DNA of 64,000 nt, taken from NCBI GenBank assembly GCA_013178285.1, contig JABLXD010000022.1:3802-67801 (forward strand), given 5' to 3'. Source of the stretch: Methanofastidiosum sp. GTDB taxonomy: Archaea; Methanobacteriota_B; Thermococci; Methanofastidiosales; Methanofastidiosaceae. The position numbers and the translations under genes are program-made. Shown one piece after another: positions 6,307 through 63,999 of this stretch. The notes under the pieces were generated by a model. The model was given only the letters and a program-made list of their open reading frames with translations. It was not told the DNA's origin and did no database searches. Within the stretch, counting starts at the first letter, position 1. Each line of letters begins with the position of its first letter.

Positions 6307-6327
6307 AGAAAATATTCAAAATATATT

Positions 6328-6669
6328 CTATGAAATTTCTTCTAAGATATCTTCTATATTTTGTTTTAATTCTGGTAAATCTCTCACAATTATTGTCCAT
6401 ACTAAATCTATATCAATGCCAAAATATTCATGAATTAATTTGTCCCTCAATCCAGATATCTTTTTCCAAGGAACTTGGGTATAATTATCTTTAAATTCTT
6501 GGGGAAGATTTTTTATCGCTTCGCCAATTATTTCAAGTCTTCGTATAGTCATGTCTTGAAGAGAAAGTGAATCTTTAAAATCTTCTTTTGATTTATTCTT
6601 CATATATTCTTCAATTAAAACTATGCTATCAAGAATATGTAGTAGGAAAATCCTAAGATCCTTCTTCAT
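6328..6669 (-). CDS. HEPN (DUF86/HepT) toxin
   Basis: RDKLIH (RxxxxH); EIIGEA motif; overlaps the MNT gene. Confidence 0.9.
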   Translation of the reverse strand: MKKDLRIFLLHILDSIVLIEEYMKNKSKEDFKDSLSLQDMTIRRLEIIGEAIKNLPQEFKDNYTQVPWKKISGLRDKLIHEYFGIDIDLVWTIIVRDLPELKQNIEDILEEIS

Positions 6670-6961
6670 AGAATACTTCCTGCTCCTTTAAAATATAATC
6701 CTTTAATAGAGGGTGAATTGATTTGTAAGTAATAACATCAACTTTCTTATTAAAAAATTCTTCAAGTTCTTGTTCTAAGCCTATTAAATCAAGTAAAGAT
6801 TTAGTTTCCACATCTGCAAATTCAACTAATATATCGATATCACTATCTTTAGTTTCTTCTCCTCGAACGTAGGATCCAAAAACAGCAGCTTTTTTTATTC
6901 CGTGTTTTTTTAAAATTGGAATCGACTTAGTCTTAATATCAGAGAGCCTAATCTTTTTCAT
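6653..6961 (-). CDS. Minimal nucleotidyltransferase (MntA) antitoxin
   Basis: FGSYVRGEETKDSDIDILV (GSx10DxD). Confidence 0.9.
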   Translation of the reverse strand: MKKIRLSDIKTKSIPILKKHGIKKAAVFGSYVRGEETKDSDIDILVEFADVETKSLLDLIGLEQELEEFFNKKVDVITYKSIHPLLKDYILKEQEVFYEEGS

Positions 6962-7067
6962 CTATTAAAGATAAAGATAATATATATTTAAGACTTACTT
7001 ATAAATTTAGATTAAACTGATTTCTATAGAAAAACCTTTTATAATAATATGAAAATCTAAAGCTTAT

Positions 7068-7139
7068 GCCCTGGTGGCTTAGTGGTATAGTGCCTGCTTG
7101 GTAAGCAGGAGGTCGCGGGTTCAATCCCCGCCCAGGGCT
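7068..7139 (+). tRNA. tRNA-Thr(GGU), no encoded CCA, no intron
   Basis: Acceptor stem GCCCTGG/CCAGGGC; anticodon stem CCTGC/GCAGG with loop TTGGTAA (GGT at 7100-7102); T-arm GCGGG-TTCAATC-CCCGC; discriminator T. Confidence 0.97.
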
Positions 7140-7331
7140 TATTTTTTTAGTTGTAAAGCCTTAGGCTATTTTAAAAAAAATAGTTTGTAGATTATTATCC
7201 AAATTAAATATACATGAAGTATAATCTAGTATTATTTGGATATTCAGTAATAAAGAGAAAAGAATAATTTTTGCTTAGTTTTAGAGAAAAAATAAAATGA
7301 AAAAGATAATTTTTCCATGTTTTCCATATAC

Positions 7332-7380
7332 TTTTCCCTATTTTCCCTATTTTTTTCCATATCTTTATATATATGGAAAC
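7332..7380 (+). repeat. Dispersed CCCTATTTT repeat module, copy A
   Basis: 45/49 identical to the reverse complement of the 16770-16818 region; ends in a TATA-like ATATATA. Confidence 0.8.
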
Positions 7381-7422
7381 TTTATTTTCATAGAAACTAG
7401 ATTATTTCAAAGTGGTGTATAT

Positions 7423-8748
7423 ATGAAAAAAATATCTATTTTAGTTTGTTTCATATTTTTAGTTTCTATTAGTTCAGTGTATGCAGCAGATGGAGATCTA
7501 AAGTGGCATACTGGACAAGTCGGGAAAGCGAATATAGGAGGTCGTATTCTAACATCTCCGGCAATAGGTAGTGATGGTACAATCTATGTTGGAACAGGTT
7601 CTGGTGATGGGCAACTTTACGCAGTAAATCAAGACGGGACATTAAAATGGAAAACTGACTTCATAGGAGACCTGATTTATTCATCTCCTGTAATCGGTAC
7701 TGATGGCACAATCTATGTTGGGACCTTCGTTGGTGATGGAGAGCTATATGCAATATATCCTACTGGAACATTGAAATGGCATACTGGACAAGTCGGAAAA
7801 GCGAATATTGGGAGCCTGATTTATTCATCGCCTGCAATTGGCGCTGATGGTACAATCTATGTTGGAACTCATTCAGGAGCACAAGAACTATACGCAATAA
7901 ATACCGACGGTACTCTAAAGTGGAAAACTGACTTCATAACTAATCCAATTTATGCCTCGCCAGCAATTGGTGCTGATGGCACAATTTATGTTGGAACTGA
8001 AGGAAGTTCTAGCTGTCGATTTTATGCAGTAAATCCCACGGATGGATCTAAGAAGTGGGAAACAACTACAGGATTTGGAATGTTTTCATCGCCCGCAATC
8101 GGTAGTGACGGCACAATCTACTTTGGAACATATTATAGTTCCAATAATCTTTACGCAATAAATCCTTTAGATGGATCTAGTAAATGGAATTACCCCACAT
8201 CAGGACAAGTTTGGTCGTCACCTGCAATAGGTAGTGACGGCACAATATACATTGGAACATATTCTGGAGATTCAGAGCTTTACGCAATAAATCCCAACAA
8301 TACTCTAAAGTGGAAAACAAACTTCATAGCAGGATTAGTTTACACATCCCCAGCAATTGGCGCTGATGGTACAATCTATGTTGGAACTTATTCTGGTGAC
8401 TACCAGCTTTACGCAGTAAATCCTAACGGTACTCTAAAGTGGAAAACAGACTCCATAGGGAAGGCTATTTTTGCCTCGCCTGCAATTGGCGCTGATGGTA
8501 CAATCTATGTTGGAACTGATATGGGTGGTGTTGGTGAACTTTATGCCATATACAGTAGCCCAGGATGGACGTATGCGACATACGAAAATTCAATGAGAAC
8601 ATACACAAACTCAAACTGGCCAAAGTTTGGTCAGAATAACTACAATCTTAGAAGAGTTGTACCGGCACCACAGGAAGTGGCAGGAAGACCTAAATCCCTT
8701 CCGATAACAAAGATACTAAAAATATTGGGATTACTTAAAGAAGAATAA
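7423..8748 (+). CDS. Secreted PQQ-like beta-propeller repeat protein
   Basis: Likely start MKKISIL at 7423 (signal peptide); nine SPAIGxDGTIYVGT...LYAIN-type repeats. Confidence 0.85.
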   Translation: MKKISILVCFIFLVSISSVYAADGDLKWHTGQVGKANIGGRILTSPAIGSDGTIYVGTGSGDGQLYAVNQDGTLKWKTDFIGDLIYSSPVIGTDGTIYVGTFVGDGELYAIYPTGTLKWHTGQVGKANIGSLIYSSPAIGADGTIYVGTHSGAQELYAINTDGTLKWKTDFITNPIYASPAIGADGTIYVGTEGSSSCRFYAVNPTDGSKKWETTTGFGMFSSPAIGSDGTIYFGTYYSSNNLYAINPLDGSSKWNYPTSGQVWSSPAIGSDGTIYIGTYSGDSELYAINPNNTLKWKTNFIAGLVYTSPAIGADGTIYVGTYSGDYQLYAVNPNGTLKWKTDSIGKAIFASPAIGADGTIYVGTDMGGVGELYAIYSSPGWTYATYENSMRTYTNSNWPKFGQNNYNLRRVVPAPQEVAGRPKSLPITKILKILGLLKEE

Positions 8749-8912: not shown

Positions 8913-11696
8913 ATGTTCAAAATGCCATCTAATGATTTTTATAGGAGATCCTCTGAAGAAATAATTTTGGAACTGTCGACTTCCCAAGAAAAAGGATTAA
9001 CATCTATAGAAGCCAAAAAACGTTTGGCCCTCTATGGAAACAATGAATTGGAATCAAAGATTAAAATCCCTTTATGGCTATTACTTTTATCCCAATTCAG
9101 GGAATTATTCGTAATAATATTAGTTATAGGCGCCCTAATCTCTATTTTGATTGGAAGTTATAGAAATGGGATAATCATCTTCGTTATAGTTATTGTAAAT
9201 GCAATAATAGGATTTGTCCAGGAATATCGGGCAAATAAAATTATAGAAAAATTGAAGAGCTTTGTTAAATCCCGTGCAAAAGTTATCCGAGATGGAGTTT
9301 TGGTGGAAGTTTCTCAAGTGGAACTTGTGCCAGGAGATATTATCAAATTAGAAGAAGGGGACAAAGTCCCAGCAGACATAAGAATTATCCAATGCTCTGA
9401 TTTTAGGACAAATGAATTTGCGCTGACAGGCGAATCTCTTCCTCAAACAAAGAATGAAGATCTTATTGTAGAGGAAGTAGGAATTGCAGATAGAAAAAAT
9501 ATGGCCTATGCAGGTACTACTGTAGCTTCAGGGAACTCAATAGGCGTTATCATTGCAACAGGGATGAAAACTGAAACGGGAAAAATAGCATATTTAACTG
9601 AAGAAACTAGTGATGTTCAAACTCCGTTACAGAAAGAACTTCGAATACTAGCACGAGAATTAACTATTATTGCCATTATCATATCTATTGGTCTTTTCAC
9701 TTTAGGGATATTACAGGAATTCTCCATATATATGAGCTTGGTATATGCGTTAGGTGTTGCAATGTCAGTTGTGCCGCAGGCCTTGCCTGCTCAAGTAACT
9801 GTAGCACTGTCAAATGGCAGCAACTACCTTGCAAACAGAAAAGCAGTAGTAAAATCTCTGCCTGCAGTAGAAACACTTGGTTCAACGACAGTTATCTGTA
9901 CCGATAAAACAGGTACTCTTACAAAAAATGAAATGACTGTAAGATCGATCTGGTTCAATGGCGAAGAATATAAAATGTCTGGCCTGGGTTATCGGCCAGA
10001 AGGGGAGATTTTAGACAATGAAGGTAAATCCCCTGCTAAAGAAGAGATAGAAGGGATAAAAAAAATCCTAAGAGCGGGATCTGTAGCATCTAATGCAGAG
10101 ATACATCCACCTGACAAAGAACACAATGAATGGTATCCCATTGGCGATCCAACTGAAGCGGCACTTATTACTGCAGCGACTAAAACGGGTATTGATTGTA
10201 AAGAGTATAATAAAGAATTCCCTGAAATACAAGAGTTTTCTTTTACTTCAGAAAGAAAGAGGATGGGATCAATAAGAAAAGAAGAATCAGGCCATGTACT
10301 GTACGTTAAAGGGTCGGTTGGCAGTATCCTCTCTATAAGTAAATACATCCACCTCAATGGTAAGGACATACCTTTGACGGAGGAGCACATTTCCAACATA
10401 AAAAAAGTAAATGAATTTTATGCTGAGAATTCAATGAGGGTGCTAGCCTTAGGTCACAAGTCATTAGAGTATAAAGGAGAATGTCTAGCCGAAGAAGCTG
10501 AAAAAGACGTTACTTTTCTGGGGCTTGTAGCAATGATGGATCCGCCAAAGGAAGGTGTGAGACAAGCTATATCCGATGCAAAAAAAGCCCATATAAAAAT
10601 CTTTATTTTAACAGGGGACCACGCACTTACTGCTGAGGCTATAGGAAAAGAGATAGGCATTTCTGAAGACGACGAAATTCCCATCATAACTGGAAAAGAA
10701 TTGAAAGAATTAAACGATGAAAAATTAATTGAATTTATTAAAGGTAAGTGGTCAATTATTTTTTCAAGGGTAGATCCAGAAGATAAAGTAAGAGTTGTCA
10801 AAATATTGGAAGGCCAGGGAGAAATTGTTGCCGTTACCGGGGATGGAGTAAATGATGCGCCAGCGCTAAAGAGGGCCCATATCGGGGTTGCGATGGGTCT
10901 TAAAGGTACTGAAGTCACTAAAGAGGCATCAGATGTTGTATTGCTAGATGATAACTTTGCCACATTAGTAGATGCAGTGAAAGGAGGCCGAACTATTTAC
11001 AATAACTTGAAAAAAACATTTTTTGCAACTATGACTACAAACGGTGGCCAATTGGCATTAGTTTTACTAGGTCTTTTAGCAGCGGCTCTTTGGGATTATC
11101 CGATACCAATACTTGCGGTGCAAATACTTGCAATAGATCTTCTTGGTGAGATAATGCCTCTGGCCTTCCTTACTTTTGACCCTCCTGATCCAGATATTAT
11201 GACTAAACCCCCTCGAAATCCTAATGAGCATATATTCCATAAAAGGTCCGGCATGGAAGTTATATTCTTGGGGATCTTGATAGGGGCCCTTGCTTTTATG
11301 AACTTCTTTTTATTTATGGGTAGAGAGGGAATAATACTAACAATGGAAAGTCTTGATAGTATTTTTTACTTCAAGGCGACGACAATAAGTTACTGCACAA
11401 TTGTTTATTGCCAGTTTGTTAACATATTAGAAAGAAGATATTGGCACACATCCATTTTTAGTTGGAATTTCTTTTCCAATAAGTTATTGTTAGGTTCTAT
11501 AGTTGCTTCAATGTGCTTAGTATTCACGGCTATATATGTCCCTTTAATTAGTAATCTATTATCATTTGGAGGCATAACTATAGTAGATTGGGGTTACATT
11601 ATCTCTTCAGCGGCGATATACCTAATTGTGTTTGAAGTGTTAAAGTTTATTAAAAGATTAGAATTTAAGAAAAAATTGGCTCCTGTAGTTAATTAA
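8913..11696 (+). CDS. P2-type cation-transporting ATPase
   Basis: TGES, DKTGTLT, DPPK, TGDH, TGDGVNDAPALK motifs; about 10 TM segments. Confidence 0.93.
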   Translation: MFKMPSNDFYRRSSEEIILELSTSQEKGLTSIEAKKRLALYGNNELESKIKIPLWLLLLSQFRELFVIILVIGALISILIGSYRNGIIIFVIVIVNAIIGFVQEYRANKIIEKLKSFVKSRAKVIRDGVLVEVSQVELVPGDIIKLEEGDKVPADIRIIQCSDFRTNEFALTGESLPQTKNEDLIVEEVGIADRKNMAYAGTTVASGNSIGVIIATGMKTETGKIAYLTEETSDVQTPLQKELRILARELTIIAIIISIGLFTLGILQEFSIYMSLVYALGVAMSVVPQALPAQVTVALSNGSNYLANRKAVVKSLPAVETLGSTTVICTDKTGTLTKNEMTVRSIWFNGEEYKMSGLGYRPEGEILDNEGKSPAKEEIEGIKKILRAGSVASNAEIHPPDKEHNEWYPIGDPTEAALITAATKTGIDCKEYNKEFPEIQEFSFTSERKRMGSIRKEESGHVLYVKGSVGSILSISKYIHLNGKDIPLTEEHISNIKKVNEFYAENSMRVLALGHKSLEYKGECLAEEAEKDVTFLGLVAMMDPPKEGVRQAISDAKKAHIKIFILTGDHALTAEAIGKEIGISEDDEIPIITGKELKELNDEKLIEFIKGKWSIIFSRVDPEDKVRVVKILEGQGEIVAVTGDGVNDAPALKRAHIGVAMGLKGTEVTKEASDVVLLDDNFATLVDAVKGGRTIYNNLKKTFFATMTTNGGQLALVLLGLLAAALWDYPIPILAVQILAIDLLGEIMPLAFLTFDPPDPDIMTKPPRNPNEHIFHKRSGMEVIFLGILIGALAFMNFFLFMGREGIILTMESLDSIFYFKATTISYCTIVYCQFVNILERRYWHTSIFSWNFFSNKLLLGSIVASMCLVFTAIYVPLISNLLSFGGITIVDWGYIISSAAIYLIVFEVLKFIKRLEFKKKLAPVVN

Positions 11697-47081: not shown

Positions 47082-47831
47082 TTAAGCTTTTCGTGCAAAT
47101 GACATGTACCCGGTATGCCCCAGCATTCTAGTCTTTGGCCTTGTTCCTTTTTCTTTGACCTCATACTCTCTGATTATGGTCTCAATTGTTCTTACTTCGG
47201 AATAATCATACTTAGATATTTCTCTTCTAAAATCAATGACCTGCTCAATGCATGGAGAAAATGAGAATATGAATCCACCTGCTCTCAAAGCTTCATATGC
47301 ATGACCAACGACCCTATATGGTTCAGGTAGGTCTAGAGAAATAAGGTCAACATCTCTCTCGTCTATCCCTTCATAGATATCCTTTAGCTTAAATTCGACG
47401 TTTCCTTTGCCATATATATCAATATTCTCTTTAGCAACTTTTAGGAATCTTTCATTAATATCGTAAGAATAGACCTTTCCAGGGAATACTGTATAAGATA
47501 ATATCAACGTCATGGCACCTGACCCCGCGCCTGCCTCGACAACAGTATCCCCAGAAGAGATACCAGTATTTGCAATAACCTGGCATGCGTCGTCAGGGTT
47601 AATTGTCTGTGGCATCTTTTTCATCATGTAGATATAATCAATCAGATTTGGTTTTAGAATCGAAAAGCTCTTTCCCATGTGGGATTTAAGTTTATCTCCA
47701 TAAGACTTCCCTACAAGCTCAGAAAGATCAAGCTTGCCTAGATTTGTATGGAATATTTTGCTTGTAACTGTAATAAGGTATTTTTTTCCTCTTGGATCCA
47801 ACAGTAAGACCCTATCATTTTCTGCTATCGT
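47082..47831 (-). CDS. trmI: tRNA (adenine-N1)-methyltransferase, probable ACG start
   Basis: VEAGAGSGA, LDLPEP, FSPCIEQV, HTGY; the frame extends to ACG-IAENDRVLLLDPRGKKY. Confidence 0.88.
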   Translation of the reverse strand, partial: TIAENDRVLLLDPRGKKYLITVTSKIFHTNLGKLDLSELVGKSYGDKLKSHMGKSFSILKPNLIDYIYMMKKMPQTINPDDACQVIANTGISSGDTVVEAGAGSGAMTLILSYTVFPGKVYSYDINERFLKVAKENIDIYGKGNVEFKLKDIYEGIDERDVDLISLDLPEPYRVVGHAYEALRAGGFIFSFSPCIEQVIDFRREISKYDYSEVRTIETIIREYEVKEKGTRPKTRMLGHTGYMSFARKA

Positions 47832-60869: not shown

Positions 60870-62057
60870 TTATTTTTTATCTTTTTTGATAATCATAGAG
60901 ATACAGTTTTGTGGACAGACCATCTTACAGAGTGCACAGCCTACGCATTTTTCAGTATCTACATCATTAAGTTTTGGATTTTTCATTGCATCTGTGGCTC
61001 CATCTCTACAAGCTGTGACACATCTTCTGCAGTCTATGCATCTTTCTGTGTCAACATCAGAGTAGACCTCATCAACGTAGTCCAATTTTTCAAGCTCAGT
61101 GATCTTTGGTAATGTAATTCCTTTCAAGTCGGCAAGTGAGTCGTATCCGTGCTCTTTCATAAATGTAAGTATGTTTTCATTCCAGCCTTTTACTATGTCA
61201 AATCCATACCACATTGCAGCTGTTGCAAGTTGGACTGTGCCGGCTCCCATCATCATATACTCAATTACATTTTCCCATGTATCAATTCCACCGATACCTG
61301 AAACATTAATACCTTCTCTTGCAATTTCTCCGACCATTCTAAGTCCTATTGGTCTAACGGCTGGCCCAGAGTATCCTCCAAAGCCTCCTTTGCCCCAAAC
61401 ATCGGGCAATGGATTTCCGGTATTGATATCAACACCAGATAAAACCAAAACAGTATTAATCGCAGATACCCCTTTGGCACCGCCTTTTATTGCTTCTTTT
61501 GCAATTGAGGCAATATCAGTTACATTTGGGGTTAGTTTTGTCATGATTGGTATGCTAACAGCTTCTGCTGCTGCCTTTGAAACTTCACTAGTCAATGGAC
61601 AATCTTGACCTATATATGCTCCCATTGCACTATCTGACATGTGAGGACATGAAACATTAAGTTCTATTATATCTGCACCTTCTGCTTCTACATCTTTTGC
61701 AAGCTTTGCCCATTCATCGAGGTCTGTACTTGCCATTATGCTTGCAACAATTGGGGTACCGTGGGTTTTCTTTAATTCTCTTAGTACTTTAAACTCTTTT
61801 TTCCACCAGTCAAAGACATAGGTAGAAATATGCTCTATGTTCTGCATTCCAAATAATCTGTTTCTAACTTTTACTCCCTGAAATCTTGGTTTTGGATCGT
61901 GGAATTGTCTGTAAGAAATAGTCTTAGTAACTCCACCACCAAATCCAGCTTCTACAGCCCTTTTTATATGATCTGCATCCAAAGTTGGGGGGGCTGAAGA
62001 GAGAAGAATCGGACTTTTAAACTCAACACCTAAAAATTCAACACCTAAATCGACCAT
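60870..62057 (-). CDS. preA: Dihydropyrimidine dehydrogenase PreA-like subunit (FMN barrel plus 2x[4Fe-4S])
   Basis: ELNVSCPH..AMG..IGQD, KLTPN, AINT, GGYSGPAVRP, GIGGI; CIDCRRC / CVGCALC ferredoxin motifs. Confidence 0.8.
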   Translation of the reverse strand: MVDLGVEFLGVEFKSPILLSSAPPTLDADHIKRAVEAGFGGGVTKTISYRQFHDPKPRFQGVKVRNRLFGMQNIEHISTYVFDWWKKEFKVLRELKKTHGTPIVASIMASTDLDEWAKLAKDVEAEGADIIELNVSCPHMSDSAMGAYIGQDCPLTSEVSKAAAEAVSIPIMTKLTPNVTDIASIAKEAIKGGAKGVSAINTVLVLSGVDINTGNPLPDVWGKGGFGGYSGPAVRPIGLRMVGEIAREGINVSGIGGIDTWENVIEYMMMGAGTVQLATAAMWYGFDIVKGWNENILTFMKEHGYDSLADLKGITLPKITELEKLDYVDEVYSDVDTERCIDCRRCVTACRDGATDAMKNPKLNDVDTEKCVGCALCKMVCPQNCISMIIKKDKK

Positions 62058-62061
62058 TAGA

Positions 62062-63210
62062 TCACCTTCCATACTTTAATCCATATACTTGTGGGATAAT
62101 AGAATATTTTGAACCTGCGGCCCTTTTCAGGAATGAAGGATCGTTTGTAATAAACGGATATGCCCTCCACTTTGAATCAGCCCTAGCAACGATGGCTTTG
62201 GAGAATACGTCATTCTTAAGGCCATATGTTATTAAGGCTGTTATAACTCCACCATCTTGACTATGTGGTGATGGATTTTTGGCCCTTGCCGCAACAATCT
62301 CAGGTTCTTCCTGATTCTTCAAGAGGATATTCTTGAAAGAATGTGTTCTTGGACAGGACATGTAGCAACATCCACAATCAGGCAAACAACTCCTAATACT
62401 GTAGGGCCTCCCATCCTCCAGTATTTCTATATTATAACATGGACATGCAAGGGCGCATGTTCCACATGCTACACAAAGCCCTGGTTGCAAAATTTCTTTT
62501 TCTAGGTCCATAAACTTCTTTTTATGTCCTTTCTCAATAAATCCTTCTAAATTATCATCTTTTTCCAAATCTACAAAAGGAAGTTTGAATCCCTTATCTT
62601 GAGCAAGTTTGATAGATTTTTTAGCCTGTTTGTTATTTAGATCTATAACCTTATTTAGTGCTTCCATTTGGACGTTTGGCGAGACTTCAATTAAGTCTTG
62701 GTCAATAAGTTTCTTGAACAAATCCTTTGCTTCTTTAGTTCTCAAAATTATAGTTGACCATCCTGCCTCTGTCCCCACACTCCCTATAGATATATCTGCA
62801 AAATCACCAGTAAAATCCGTACACTGTCTGCAGTTTCCTCTAGCATACTTTGATACTTCTGCTATCTTTCTTGACCTAACTTCTTTGTCTGTATATGCAT
62901 AGAAAATTCCACTCGAGATATTCATCTTATTGACTTCTTCTAATGGTAAGCCCATATTTTTTTCAACAAAAGATGGTATTGTTTTTGGAGAAAAATTTTC
63001 CTTGCAAAATACGGCTATAGTGAATACTCTTTTTGGCCAGTGGGGGTAGTCTGAATCTCTATCTTTATAGAATTCTTTGAATTCATTTGTAAGCGCCATT
63101 ATCTTCTTTACACCGTTTATCTCACATGGATTTCCTACTATGACTACTTGTGCTCTGGGGTCTTTAGTTGTCTCGGAGAAACTAACCTCCTTGATAATAG
63201 CTTCACTCGT
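62062..63210 (-). CDS. Circularly permuted FrhB/FdhB-family flavoprotein, probable ACG start
   Basis: VGNPC, FCKENF, CRQC, ADISIGSVG first; then 2x[4Fe-4S]; then QDGGVIT...AGSKY. Confidence 0.85.
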   Translation of the reverse strand, partial: TSEAIIKEVSFSETTKDPRAQVVIVGNPCEINGVKKIMALTNEFKEFYKDRDSDYPHWPKRVFTIAVFCKENFSPKTIPSFVEKNMGLPLEEVNKMNISSGIFYAYTDKEVRSRKIAEVSKYARGNCRQCTDFTGDFADISIGSVGTEAGWSTIILRTKEAKDLFKKLIDQDLIEVSPNVQMEALNKVIDLNNKQAKKSIKLAQDKGFKLPFVDLEKDDNLEGFIEKGHKKKFMDLEKEILQPGLCVACGTCALACPCYNIEILEDGRPYSIRSCLPDCGCCYMSCPRTHSFKNILLKNQEEPEIVAARAKNPSPHSQDGGVITALITYGLKNDVFSKAIVARADSKWRAYPFITNDPSFLKRAAGSKYSIIPQVYGLKYGR

Positions 63211-63351
63211 TTATATCCCTCCTATCTTTAAATTTTCAAAAACCAAAATAGATAAAAACATGATTTCTTTATGTTTTTTTTATTTAAATAGTTTTCGTCG
63301 TATATTCATTTAAATAAATAAATAGTAAAATATATGCGGATTAGACCTGAA

Positions 63352-63999
63352 TTAACGAATAATATCCGCTTTTCTCTTTAGGGCCCGTTTTTTTCTTAGA
63401 TAATACATGAAAGGATTATTAATTCTTCTTGCAGTAACAGTTTTATTTTTTACAAATGCTAAAAGTTGTTTTTTTACTTCTTCTTCTGGCAATCCAGTTT
63501 TTTGGATTATTTCATTTAGCGGACGCATTCTATCCTTTAAAACAAGTAAAATTTTTTCTCCGATTGTGTTGCCCTTAAGATTTTCAAGAACTTCTTTTTT
63601 TGTGACTTCATAAAAGTACATCTTGCAGAAACTGTCCGGCTCACAAAGTGTTGGGGCGTTTTCTTTCACCTTTGCACACCCAGGAGGGATATACCATTTG
63701 CTTCTGCCAAAGTTATCTAAGGTGGGGTAAGCTAAGCCAAATCCAAGATGGTAGTAGATGTTCAATTCTTCTTGAGGTTGATCTTCAAGAAATGGAGGGT
63801 TACATTTGTTAGCAGCTGATAAAATCAAAGGTATGACTTCATTTATTAAAATATTAATTTGAGTTTCGTTTAGTGAAGGCTTTTCATCTTTCGAGAAAAT
63901 TTTAGTCGAAGGTAATAATCTTGAATAGGATAAAAAAGAAGATAGGAATAAGGTAATGGCATAATTTCTGTCACCAGCGCCAACACCAGAAAGGGCTTT
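63352..63999 (-). CDS. priL: DNA primase large subunit, 3' part (5' end lies beyond the window)
   Basis: Frame is open to the window end: GDRNYAITLFLSSFLSY, KCNPPF, YHLGFG, WYIPPGC, LCEPDSFC, NPFMYY. Confidence 0.8.
   Translation of the reverse strand, partial: KALSGVGAGDRNYAITLFLSSFLSYSRLLPSTKIFSKDEKPSLNETQINILINEVIPLILSAANKCNPPFLEDQPQEELNIYYHLGFGLAYPTLDNFGRSKWYIPPGCAKVKENAPTLCEPDSFCKMYFYEVTKKEVLENLKGNTIGEKILLVLKDRMRPLNEIIQKTGLPEEEVKKQLLAFVKNKTVTARRINNPFMYYLRKKRALKRKADIIR

What the first reader, a model, noticed from the sequence alone, without database searches (positions are those of the whole stretch)
63097..63223. Second ACG start: an essential Cys motif lies upstream of the first ATG of the FrhB-like gene
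Seen: AGGAGGG-ATATAA-ACG AGT GAA GCT... opens 37 in-frame codons, including VVIVGNPCEI, before ATG 63099. An in-frame TAA precedes the ACG, and no ATG/GTG/TTG lies in frame within the extension. Established: VGxPC supplies a [4Fe-4S] ligand in FrhB proteins. The context GGGATATAA(T)ACG is shared with the trmI case. Inference: two SD-positioned ACG starts in one window suggest real ACG initiation or C-to-U editing rather than error.
Basis: partly seen in the sequence, partly recalled or inferred. Interest (0 to 1): 0.62.

Follow-up and report, generated by a model that had tools for sequence, protein, structure and literature searches.

The report
Conserved ACG start codon, archaeal gene
In the uncultured methanogen Candidatus Methanofastidiosum, an iron-sulfur flavoprotein gene (and at least two other genes) begins translation at an ACG codon placed behind a ribosome-binding site; ACG is not an accepted prokaryotic start codon, so gene finders cut off an essential cysteine.

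Summary
On the minus strand, AGGAGGG (63223-63217), then ATATAA with an in-frame TAA, then ACG (63210-63208) opens 37 codons with no ATG/GTG/TTG before ATG 63099.

- The extension is coding. Pfam FrhB_FdhB_C matches from residue 21. Variation by codon position is 12/12/34 of 36. Cys29 aligns with the [4Fe-4S] ligand Cys104 of FrhB.
- It is not an error. SD-TAA-ACG is invariant in 15 distinct Methanofastidiosum sequences and 10 further contigs.
- No four-fold site carrying a C stayed C in all 15 sequences (0 of 36).
- The out-of-frame GTG and the ATG at codon 38 are not conserved.
- Distant orthologues start with ATG at the residue aligned to ACG.
- Two more genes show the same start column. 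trmI has ACG x11, ATG x3, ATA x1. An RraA-like gene has ACG x6, ATG x8, TTG x2.
- The initiator tRNA is standard and aIF1 is present.

Best reading: SD-directed near-cognate initiation at ACG, possibly helped by coupling to a 16-codon upstream mini-ORF. I found no published natural ACG start in archaea.

The parts
63208..63210 (-). ACG, proposed initiation codon of the FrhB-like gene
   Evidence: Invariant in 25 sequences. It lies 7 nt after the GGAGG core, the modal spacing of ATG genes. It aligns with Met1 of the ATG-initiated orthologue L015.
63217..63223 (-). Shine-Dalgarno sequence AGGAGGG
   Evidence: The GG(A/G)GG(G/A) core is conserved in all orthologues.
63211..63213 (-). In-frame TAA directly 5' of ACG; stop of the upstream mini-ORF
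   Evidence: Invariant in all sequences.
63211..63261 (-). 16-codon upstream mini-ORF (ATG 63261-63259 to TAA), MFLSILVFENLKIGGI*
   Evidence: The ATG is invariant and the length is constant. The frame has 0 stops in 15 sequences, against 32 and 13 in the other frames. There is no third-position periodicity (10/5/6 of 11), so translation is not shown.
63281..63297 (-). Candidate archaeal promoter: BRE-like cgaaaac plus TATA box TTTAAATA
   Evidence: Read from the sequence and conserved in several species. It ends 19 nt before the mini-ORF ATG. The transcription start is inferred, not mapped.
63100..63210 (-). 37-codon N-terminal extension lacking any ATG/GTG/TTG
   Evidence: Pfam FrhB_FdhB_C starts matching at residue 21. 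Variable columns by codon position are 12/12/34 of 36.
63124..63126 (-). Cys29 codon (VGNPC), predicted [4Fe-4S] ligand
   Evidence: Aligns with IVGTPCQI of 8RJA_E and falls at residue 104 of 9R51_B by alignment offset. FrhB Cys104 is a cluster ligand (PMC3591093).
63097..63099 (-). First ATG (codon 38), the start used by public gene calls
   Evidence: Not conserved: it is Leu in L002, L005, L013 and L030, and L002 has no canonical start in its first 50 codons. Public calls P0001 and P0002 lack Cys29.
62062..63210 (-). Full CDS of the circularly permuted FrhB-like protein (382 codons plus stop)
   Evidence: FrhB_C covers residues 21-178, Fer4 about 244-287 and FrhB_N 306-374. Solved relatives have the order Fer4, N, C.
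60870..62072 (-). Downstream overlapping gene: DHO_dh-like flavoprotein with a C-terminal 2x[4Fe-4S] domain
   Evidence: Pfam PF01180 plus Fer4_21. It is adjacent in all contigs.
47829..47831 (-). ACG start of trmI, the second case in the window
   Evidence: The start column across the genus is ACG x11, ATG x3, ATA x1, behind the same SD.

Best explanation
The FrhB-like gene starts at ACG 63210-63208. The Shine-Dalgarno sequence AGGAGGG places the small ribosomal subunit so that ACG sits in the P site. The ordinary initiator Met-tRNA (anticodon CAU) pairs with ACG through one mismatch at the middle base. The protein would therefore begin Met-Ser-Glu-Ala and include Cys29. ACG acts as a weak start codon that selection keeps in this gene, probably to set low or regulated output of the operon. 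The genus tolerates ACG at other genes too (trmI and an RraA-like gene).

Shown: the position of the N-terminus; that the extension is coding; conservation of SD-TAA-ACG; interchange of ACG with ATG, ATA and TTG in one column; a normal initiator tRNA.

Inferred: that Met-tRNAi decodes ACG directly, that the start is weak, and any role of the upstream mini-ORF.
For: 1. The extension is coding. The Pfam model matches from residue 21. Codon-position variation is 12/12/34 of 36. Cys29 aligns to ligand Cys104.
2. ACG is the only invariant start-like codon behind the SD. 12 of 15 sequences have no canonical codon before Cys29, and codon 38 is not conserved.
3. Spacers are 7-8 nt in the three ACG genes, against a mode of 6-8 nt in 74 of 93 SD-led ATG genes.
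4. Orthologues from another family of the order (40% identity) start with SD plus ATG at the residue aligned to ACG, or one residue before it.
5. At trmI and the RraA-like gene the same column holds ACG, ATG, ATA or TTG in different species, with at least 3 independent changes each.
6. The C is constrained: 0 of 36 four-fold sites with a C stayed all-C, and only 17% of four-fold sites are invariant.
7. The genome has one standard initiator tRNA (A1:U72, GGG/CCC stem, CAU), and tRNA-Thr(CGU) is an ordinary elongator.
8. At SD-aligned start columns, G000 and G005 swap canonical codons only with ACG, ATA, ATC or CTG. AAG appeared only where an ATG follows directly, and AGG never.
9. In E. coli, ACG initiates at 0.1-1% of AUG and yields N-terminal Met (10.1101/063800).
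Against: Measured ACG initiation in E. coli is very weak, and archaeal aIF1 rejects AUU in vitro (PMC4705826). aIF1 is present here. Genome-wide, ACG behind a strong SD is only slightly enriched (4 of 145, against about 1.2% background). Three of 15 species have a sporadic canonical codon before Cys29 that could serve as a back-up start. The invariant TAA and the always-open mini-ORF suggest something beyond simple SD-led initiation.
Confidence: 0.7

Rival explanations
1. Termination-reinitiation. The transcript starts at or near ATG 63261 and the 16-codon mini-ORF is translated, possibly by the leaderless route. The ribosome that terminates at UAA 63213-63211 reinitiates on the adjacent ACG, held in place by the SD. 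This is a variant of the best explanation: the start is still ACG, but it depends on upstream translation.
For: The mini-ORF ATG, its length and its TAA are invariant, and its frame has 0 stops in 15 sequences against 32 and 13 in the other frames. The frame is also open in the further contigs. A BRE/TATA-like element ends 19 nt before that ATG. The other ACG genes also lie close behind a translated ORF: trmI overlaps the upstream stop, and the RraA-like start lies 16 nt after an upstream TAA.
Against: The mini-ORF shows no coding periodicity (10/5/6). The transcription start is not mapped, and by the usual spacing it may fall just inside or after the ATG. The 15 sequences are related, so an open frame is weak evidence. 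Close spacing behind an upstream gene is common in compact archaeal operons.
Confidence: 0.15
2. C-to-U editing of the mRNA converts ACG to AUG, as in plant organelles. On this view the genomic ACG is only apparently non-canonical.
For: ACG would become AUG by the same single change, and the candidate CTG starts would become UUG.
Against: From my own knowledge, mRNA editing is unknown in archaea. The ACG sites share no sequence context beyond the SD. ATA and ATC also occur at start columns, and C-to-U editing cannot repair those. If editing only restored AUG, a genomic T would be at least as good, yet the C is held invariant.
Confidence: 0.08
3. Read-through of TAA 63213-63211 fuses the mini-ORF to the FrhB-like frame, so the protein starts at ATG 63261 with a 17-residue hydrophobic extension.
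For: The mini-ORF is in frame with the gene and always open.
Against: Distant orthologues begin at the residue aligned with ACG and have in-frame stops 2-5 codons upstream. The mini-ORF peptide is not under coding selection. An SD placed 7 nt before ACG would have no purpose. trmI and the RraA-like gene have no such arrangement.
Confidence: 0.03
4. Translation starts downstream, at ATG 63099 or an internal Ile codon, giving a truncated protein, and the extension is a conserved leader. Alternatively, translation enters by frameshift from GTG 63206, or the ACG is an assembly error.
For: Public gene callers chose the downstream starts.
Against: Codon 38 is Leu in four sequences, and G004 has no canonical codon in its first 50. 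The extension is under purifying selection in frame and carries a cluster ligand. The GTG is absent in three sequences and badly spaced. ACG appears in 25 sequences from many assemblies.
Confidence: 0.02

Closest known systems
Near-cognate (non-AUG) initiation at ACG in eukaryotes and their viruses (for example the AAV VP2 ACG start, and ACG-initiated uORFs in plants and polyamine genes)
   Same: A codon one base away from AUG is read by initiator Met-tRNA. It is used as a deliberately weak start and is conserved. Archaeal initiation factors (aIF1, aIF1A, aIF2) are homologues of the eukaryotic ones (PMC4705826).
   Different: Here the start site is set by a Shine-Dalgarno sequence on a prokaryotic-type, probably polycistronic mRNA. 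It is not set by scanning and Kozak context.
Conserved weak start codons in bacteria (infC AUU autoregulation; the rare AUA, AUC, AUU and CUG starts of NCBI table 11)
   Same: An SD-led gene carries a conserved sub-optimal start codon that selection maintains. The same genus also shows ATA, ATC and CTG candidates.
   Different: From my own knowledge, ACG is not in the start set of table 11. In E. coli it falls in the 0.1-1% class, below AUA, AUC, AUU and CUG (10.1101/063800). No regulatory loop is known for this gene.
Start-codon creation by C-to-U RNA editing in plant organelles (ACG in the DNA, AUG in the mRNA)
   Same: A genomic ACG sits exactly at the Met1 position of a conserved protein.
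   Different: No editing machinery or shared cis-element was identified, mRNA editing is unknown in archaea, and no RNA data were available. In plants such sites are often replaced by genomic T in relatives. That does happen at trmI and the RraA-like gene, but never at the FrhB-like gene.
FrhB/FdhB family of F420-reactive FAD/[4Fe-4S] proteins (FrhB, FpoF, the Fsr N-terminal half; PDB 3ZFS, 7NP8, 8RJA, 9TN7)
   Same: Both Pfam domains are present, with the four cluster cysteines and a ferredoxin-type 2x[4Fe-4S] insert.
   Different: The domain order is circularly permuted (C-domain, Fer4, N-domain). That puts the first cluster cysteine 29 residues from the N-terminus and makes the protein sensitive to start-codon miscalls.

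Membership tests
Near-cognate initiation codon (functional non-AUG start) | The codon differs from AUG at one position and lies at the ribosome-binding-site spacing used by normal genes | tested here: met
   ACG lies 7 nt after GGAGG. The modal spacer of SD-led ATG genes is 6-8 nt.
Near-cognate initiation codon (functional non-AUG start) | The codon occupies the position of Met1 in orthologues that use a canonical start | tested here: met
   L015 Met1 aligns to the ACG codon and L016 is one residue off. trmI and the RraA-like gene have ATG or TTG in the same column in other species.
Near-cognate initiation codon (functional non-AUG start) | The conserved, required protein sequence has no canonical start upstream of it | tested here: met
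   No ATG, GTG or TTG lies before Cys29 in 12 of 15 sequences. Cys29 aligns to the cluster ligand.
Near-cognate initiation codon (functional non-AUG start) | The protein product begins at that codon, with Met inserted by initiator tRNA | not testable with these tools
   This needs N-terminal proteomics or Ribo-seq. Only a standard initiator tRNA was found.
NCBI translation table 11 start-codon set | The codon is one of TTG, CTG, ATT, ATC, ATA, ATG, GTG | tested here: not met
   The codon is ACG. The table's start set is taken from my own knowledge.
Start codon created by C-to-U mRNA editing | DNA reads C while mRNA reads U at the second position of the start codon | not testable with these tools
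FrhB/FdhB family (PF04432 plus PF04422) | Both family domains score above the Pfam gathering thresholds | tested here: met
   FrhB_FdhB_C scores 123 bits (cut-off 23.3) and FrhB_FdhB_N 58.7 bits (cut-off 22).
FrhB/FdhB family (PF04432 plus PF04422) | Four conserved cysteines that ligate the [4Fe-4S] cluster (FrhB Cys104, 134, 192, 195) | tested here: met
   Cys29, Cys69, Cys127 and Cys130 are nearly invariant in the orthologue alignment. They align to the GTPC, FC and CxxC motifs of solved relatives.
FrhB/FdhB family (PF04432 plus PF04422) | Canonical domain order, N-domain before C-domain | tested here: not met
   The C-domain covers residues 21-178 and the N-domain 306-374. Solved relatives have the N-domain first. 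This is a circular permutant.
FrhB/FdhB family (PF04432 plus PF04422) | Equivalog-level identity with FrhB or FpoF (NCBIfam) | tested here: not met
   TIGR03289 scores 160.7 bits against a cut-off of 331.5, and FpoF 123 against 475. It is a family member but not an FrhB or FpoF orthologue.
FrhB/FdhB family (PF04432 plus PF04422) | Binds FAD and reacts with F420 | not testable with these tools
   The structure model failed (pLDDT 38.8). Biochemistry is needed.

The most novel reading that the evidence does not exclude
Selection positively maintains ACG as a regulatory start in this operon, and initiation on it depends on translation of the always-open 16-codon leader mini-ORF, whose UAA abuts the ACG. 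That would be a termination-coupled near-cognate start, a mode of archaeal translational control that has not been described. More radical, and not excluded: archaeal mRNA C-to-U editing creates AUG from ACG.
Probability: 0.2. Interest if true: 0.85.

Novelty: new variant of a known kind. Interest (0 to 1): 0.62.

Why it matters
The accepted start codons for archaea are AUG, GUG and UUG. ACG is not in the start set of translation table 11, and gene finders never try it. Here an ACG start is fixed across a whole genus and is under purifying selection. In two other genes it interchanges with ATG. This gives clean natural material for asking how strict archaeal start-codon selection is, given machinery (aIF1, aIF2) that is homologous to the eukaryotic one.

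It also has a practical consequence. Public protein records for this family lack the first [4Fe-4S] cysteine, and trmI and the RraA-like gene are also at risk of miscalling. Metabolic reconstructions of Methanofastidiosa therefore rest on truncated models. Earlier notes of this scan report similar ACG starts in Bathyarchaeia, Thermoplasmata, Micrarchaeota and other lineages. I did not check those notes. If they hold, ACG initiation may be a general but overlooked archaeal feature.

Tried and rejected
- **Frameshift from GTG 63206.** Rejected. The GTG is absent in G013, G006 and L030, its frame closes after 20 codons, and its spacer would be 11 nt.
- **Start at ATG 63099.** Rejected. The codon is not conserved and the product would lack Cys29.
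- **A special initiator tRNA that reads ACG.** Rejected. The genome has one standard tRNAi(CAU), and tRNA-Thr(CGU) is a normal elongator.
- **Loss of aIF1.** Rejected. It is present in 40 of 41 relatives.
- **GGGATATAA as a dedicated motif.** Rejected. It is not kept in other species' trmI.
- **Genome-wide enrichment of SD-ACG.** Only weak: 4 of 145.
- **First G000-G005 census** (alignment reaching upstream of the first canonical start). Unusable, because conserved UTRs also align. Replaced by the test requiring an SD in both genomes. The SD-independent census is noisy.
- **False leads:**
  - The aIF1 'CTG start' is a false lead; its real start is SD plus ATG.
  - The 'in-frame stop' in a FrhB paralogue was the alignment running past the terminal stop.
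  - The C16 ACG lies in a truncated gene fragment.
- **RNA element in the leader.** No Rfam match, and the consensus fold is weak with no compensatory pairs.
- **AlphaFold model.** Failed at mean pLDDT 38.8 because the alignment was shallow, so I ran no fold search.
- **The sigma-70 promoter scan.** Uninformative for an archaeon.
- **16S 3' end.** Not found in the assembly, so I make no anti-SD claim.
- **Literature searches.** They found no natural ACG start in archaea or bacteria. Haloferax Ribo-seq saw near-cognate sites but set them aside.

Full report
**What is there.** The gene lies on the minus strand. The sequence reads AGGAGGG (63223-63217), ATA, TAA (63213-63211), ACG (63210-63208), and then an open frame to the stop at 62062, 382 codons in all. 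The first ATG/GTG/TTG is ATG 63099-63097, at codon 38. The 37 codons before it encode TSEAIIKEVSFSETTKDPRAQVVIVGNPCEINGVKKI. GTG 63206 is out of frame and its frame closes after 20 codons. A start-free run of 37 codons is not unusual at 34.5% GC (I estimate about 0.17), so the case rests on homology and conservation.

**The extension is coding and needed.**
- Pfam FrhB_FdhB_C matches residues 21-178, from profile position 3 of 150.
- Across 15 distinct orthologous sequences, codons 2-37 vary at positions 1/2/3 in 12/12/34 of 36 columns, which is the signature of purifying selection in this frame.
- In alignments to solved relatives, IVGNPCEI matches IVGTPCQI of 8RJA_E, and Cys29 falls on residue 104 of 9R51_B.
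- Mills et al. (PMC3591093) report that FrhB Cys104, 134, 192 and 195, all fully conserved, surround the [4Fe-4S] cluster.
- Cys29, Cys69, Cys127 and Cys130 are nearly invariant among the orthologues.
- A protein started at codon 38 would lack one cluster ligand. Public gene calls P0001 and P0002 have exactly this truncation.

**Organism.** Record titles of near-identical loci name Candidatus Methanofastidiosum (WSA2/Arc I; class Thermococci in GTDB).

**Not an error, a frameshift or a downstream start.**
- Fourteen species-level genomes of the genus, one mis-binned contig and ten further contigs from at least 8 independent runs or samples all carry GG(A/G)GG(G/A)-AT(A/T)-TAA-ACG.
- Pairwise DNA identity of the gene is 80-85% for most pairs. 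Only 17% of four-fold sites are invariant, and 0 of 36 four-fold sites carrying a C stayed C in all 15 sequences.
- The C of ACG is therefore constrained, even though a C-to-T change would create a canonical ATG.
- The out-of-frame GTG is missing in G013, G006 and L030.
- Codon 38 is Leu in four sequences, and G004 has no canonical codon in its first 50.
- Twelve of 15 sequences have no canonical codon before Cys29. The three exceptions are sporadic and sit at different codons.

**ACG sits at the orthologous N-terminus.** Orthologues in another family of the same order (40% identity, same permuted architecture) start with SD plus ATG and have in-frame stops 2-5 codons upstream. In a global alignment, Met1 of L015 (MSEVL...) falls exactly on the ACG codon (TSEAI...), and Met1 of L016 lies one residue before it. 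This argues against an N-terminal fusion by read-through.

**The same behaviour in other genes.**
- The trmI case in this window (ACG 47831-47829) was checked in 15 genomes. The start column is ACG in 11, ATG in 3 (G001, G005, G007) and ATA in 1 (G009), always behind GGGGTGA or AGAGGTGA.
- A genome-wide scan and a comparison with the complete relative G005 turned up an RraA-like gene at C1:238129. I fetched G005 in pieces and paired it ORF by ORF with G000. The start column of the RraA-like gene is ACG x6, ATG x8, TTG x2.
- On a two-gene tree these states need at least three independent changes in trmI and about three in the RraA-like gene.
- At aligned columns with an SD in both genomes, canonical codons interchange only with ACG, ATA, ATC or CTG. 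AAG appears only where an ATG follows directly, and AGG never appears. This matches the known ranking of near-cognate codons.
- ACG behind a strong SD is only slightly enriched genome-wide (4 of 145). So this concerns a few genes, not a changed code. G005 shows no ACG start.

**Mechanism.**
- The three ACG genes have 7-8 nt between the GGRGG core and ACG. The mode for SD-led ATG genes is 6-8 nt, found in 74 of 93.
- The genome encodes one standard initiator tRNA (A1:U72, GGG/CCC anticodon stem, CAU), and its tRNA-Thr(CGU) is an ordinary elongator.
- aIF1 is present throughout the lineage.
- The best-supported reading is SD-directed initiation on ACG by Met-tRNAi with a mismatch at the middle base.
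- In E. coli, ACG gives 0.1-1% of AUG output with N-terminal Met (10.1101/063800).
- Haloferax Ribo-seq saw near-cognate sites but did not pursue them (PMC7261190).
- My searches found no natural ACG start reported for archaea or bacteria.
- Because ACG is held invariant here while it flips freely in the other two genes, I infer that a weak start is advantageous for this operon.

**An unexplained layer.**
- The TAA directly before ACG is invariant.
- It closes a 16-codon frame that opens at an invariant ATG (63261-63259). That frame has constant length and no stop in 15 sequences, against 32 and 13 stops in the other two frames.
- The peptide itself is not conserved.
- A BRE/TATA-like element (63297-63281) ends 19 nt before that ATG, so the transcript may begin at or near it. 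This is an inference.
- Termination-coupled reinitiation on the adjacent ACG is therefore a live variant, at about 15%.
- The two other ACG genes also lie immediately behind translated ORFs.
- Against editing: the sites share no context, ATA and ATC starts also occur, and the C is constrained.

**What the protein is.** It belongs to the FrhB/FdhB family but is not an FrhB or FpoF equivalog. It is a circular permutant with the order C-domain, 2x[4Fe-4S], N-domain. Solved relatives have the order Fer4, N, C. It overlaps a DHO_dh-like Fe-S flavoprotein gene (62072-60870), which suggests a two-subunit oxidoreductase. The permutation explains why a cluster ligand lies so close to the N-terminus.

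**Limits.**
- The AlphaFold model failed at pLDDT 38.8.
- No RNA family or supported structure was found in the leader.
- The 16S 3' end is not in the assembly.
- Earlier notes of this scan describe ACG starts in other archaeal lineages. I treat them as leads and not as evidence.

**Verdict.** This is a conserved, selected ACG initiation site in an archaeon: a new variant of a known kind (near-cognate initiation). I found no description of it for archaea in the literature I could search.

Noticed in passing
window 62062-63210 (-): The FrhB-like protein is a circular permutant (FrhB_C, then 2x[4Fe-4S], then FrhB_N) relative to all solved relatives (Fer4, N, C). The permuted order also occurs in another family of the order (L015, L016) and in a Promethearchaeota MAG (L032).
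   Followed up: partly
window 60870-62072 (-): A DHO_dh-like flavoprotein with a C-terminal 2x[4Fe-4S] domain overlaps the FrhB-like gene by 11 nt and is adjacent in every contig. It is probably the catalytic partner in a two-subunit oxidoreductase of unknown substrate.
   Followed up: no
window 47825-47831 (-): At trmI, the C/T at the start codon also changes the upstream membrane-protein gene's end. ACGATAG gives ...Arg-stop(TAG). ATGA gives a one-residue-shorter protein with the classic ATGA overlap (species G001, G005, G007).
   Followed up: partly
G000 C1:238129-238728 (+), outside the window: An RraA-like gene starts at ACG behind GGGGGT. Across the genus the start column is ACG x6, ATG x8, TTG x2.
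   Followed up: yes
G000 C30:+ ORF 9660-10512; C30:+ ORF 6319-7927; C31:+ ORF 7421-7748 (0-based ORF bounds): Further candidate near-cognate starts. An ATA start has ATG in G005 and its first canonical codon is at 82. An ATC start has ATG in G005. A CTG behind ataggagggattat is conserved in both genomes, with first canonical codons at 37 and 34. None was checked in further species.
   Followed up: no
L030 (JAKPTX010000181.1, labelled Bacteroidota MAG): This contig carries the Methanofastidiosum FrhB-like operon (88% amino-acid identity, same SD-TAA-ACG). It is almost certainly mis-binned archaeal DNA.
   Followed up: no
G000 C16:133937-133939 (-): An ACG aligned to an ATG of G005 heads a 57-codon fragment of a gene that is much longer in G005. 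This is probably a decaying pseudogene and not a functional ACG start.
   Followed up: partly
genomes G005 and G007: This subclade has ATG at both polymorphic genes (trmI and RraA-like) and lacks the FrhB-like operon. No ACG start was detected in G005, so ACG use may be confined to part of the genus.
   Followed up: partly
window 63352-63999 (-): The upstream gene is a PriL-like primase large subunit. Its C-terminus gives a weak winged-helix (HTH_9) match.
   Followed up: no
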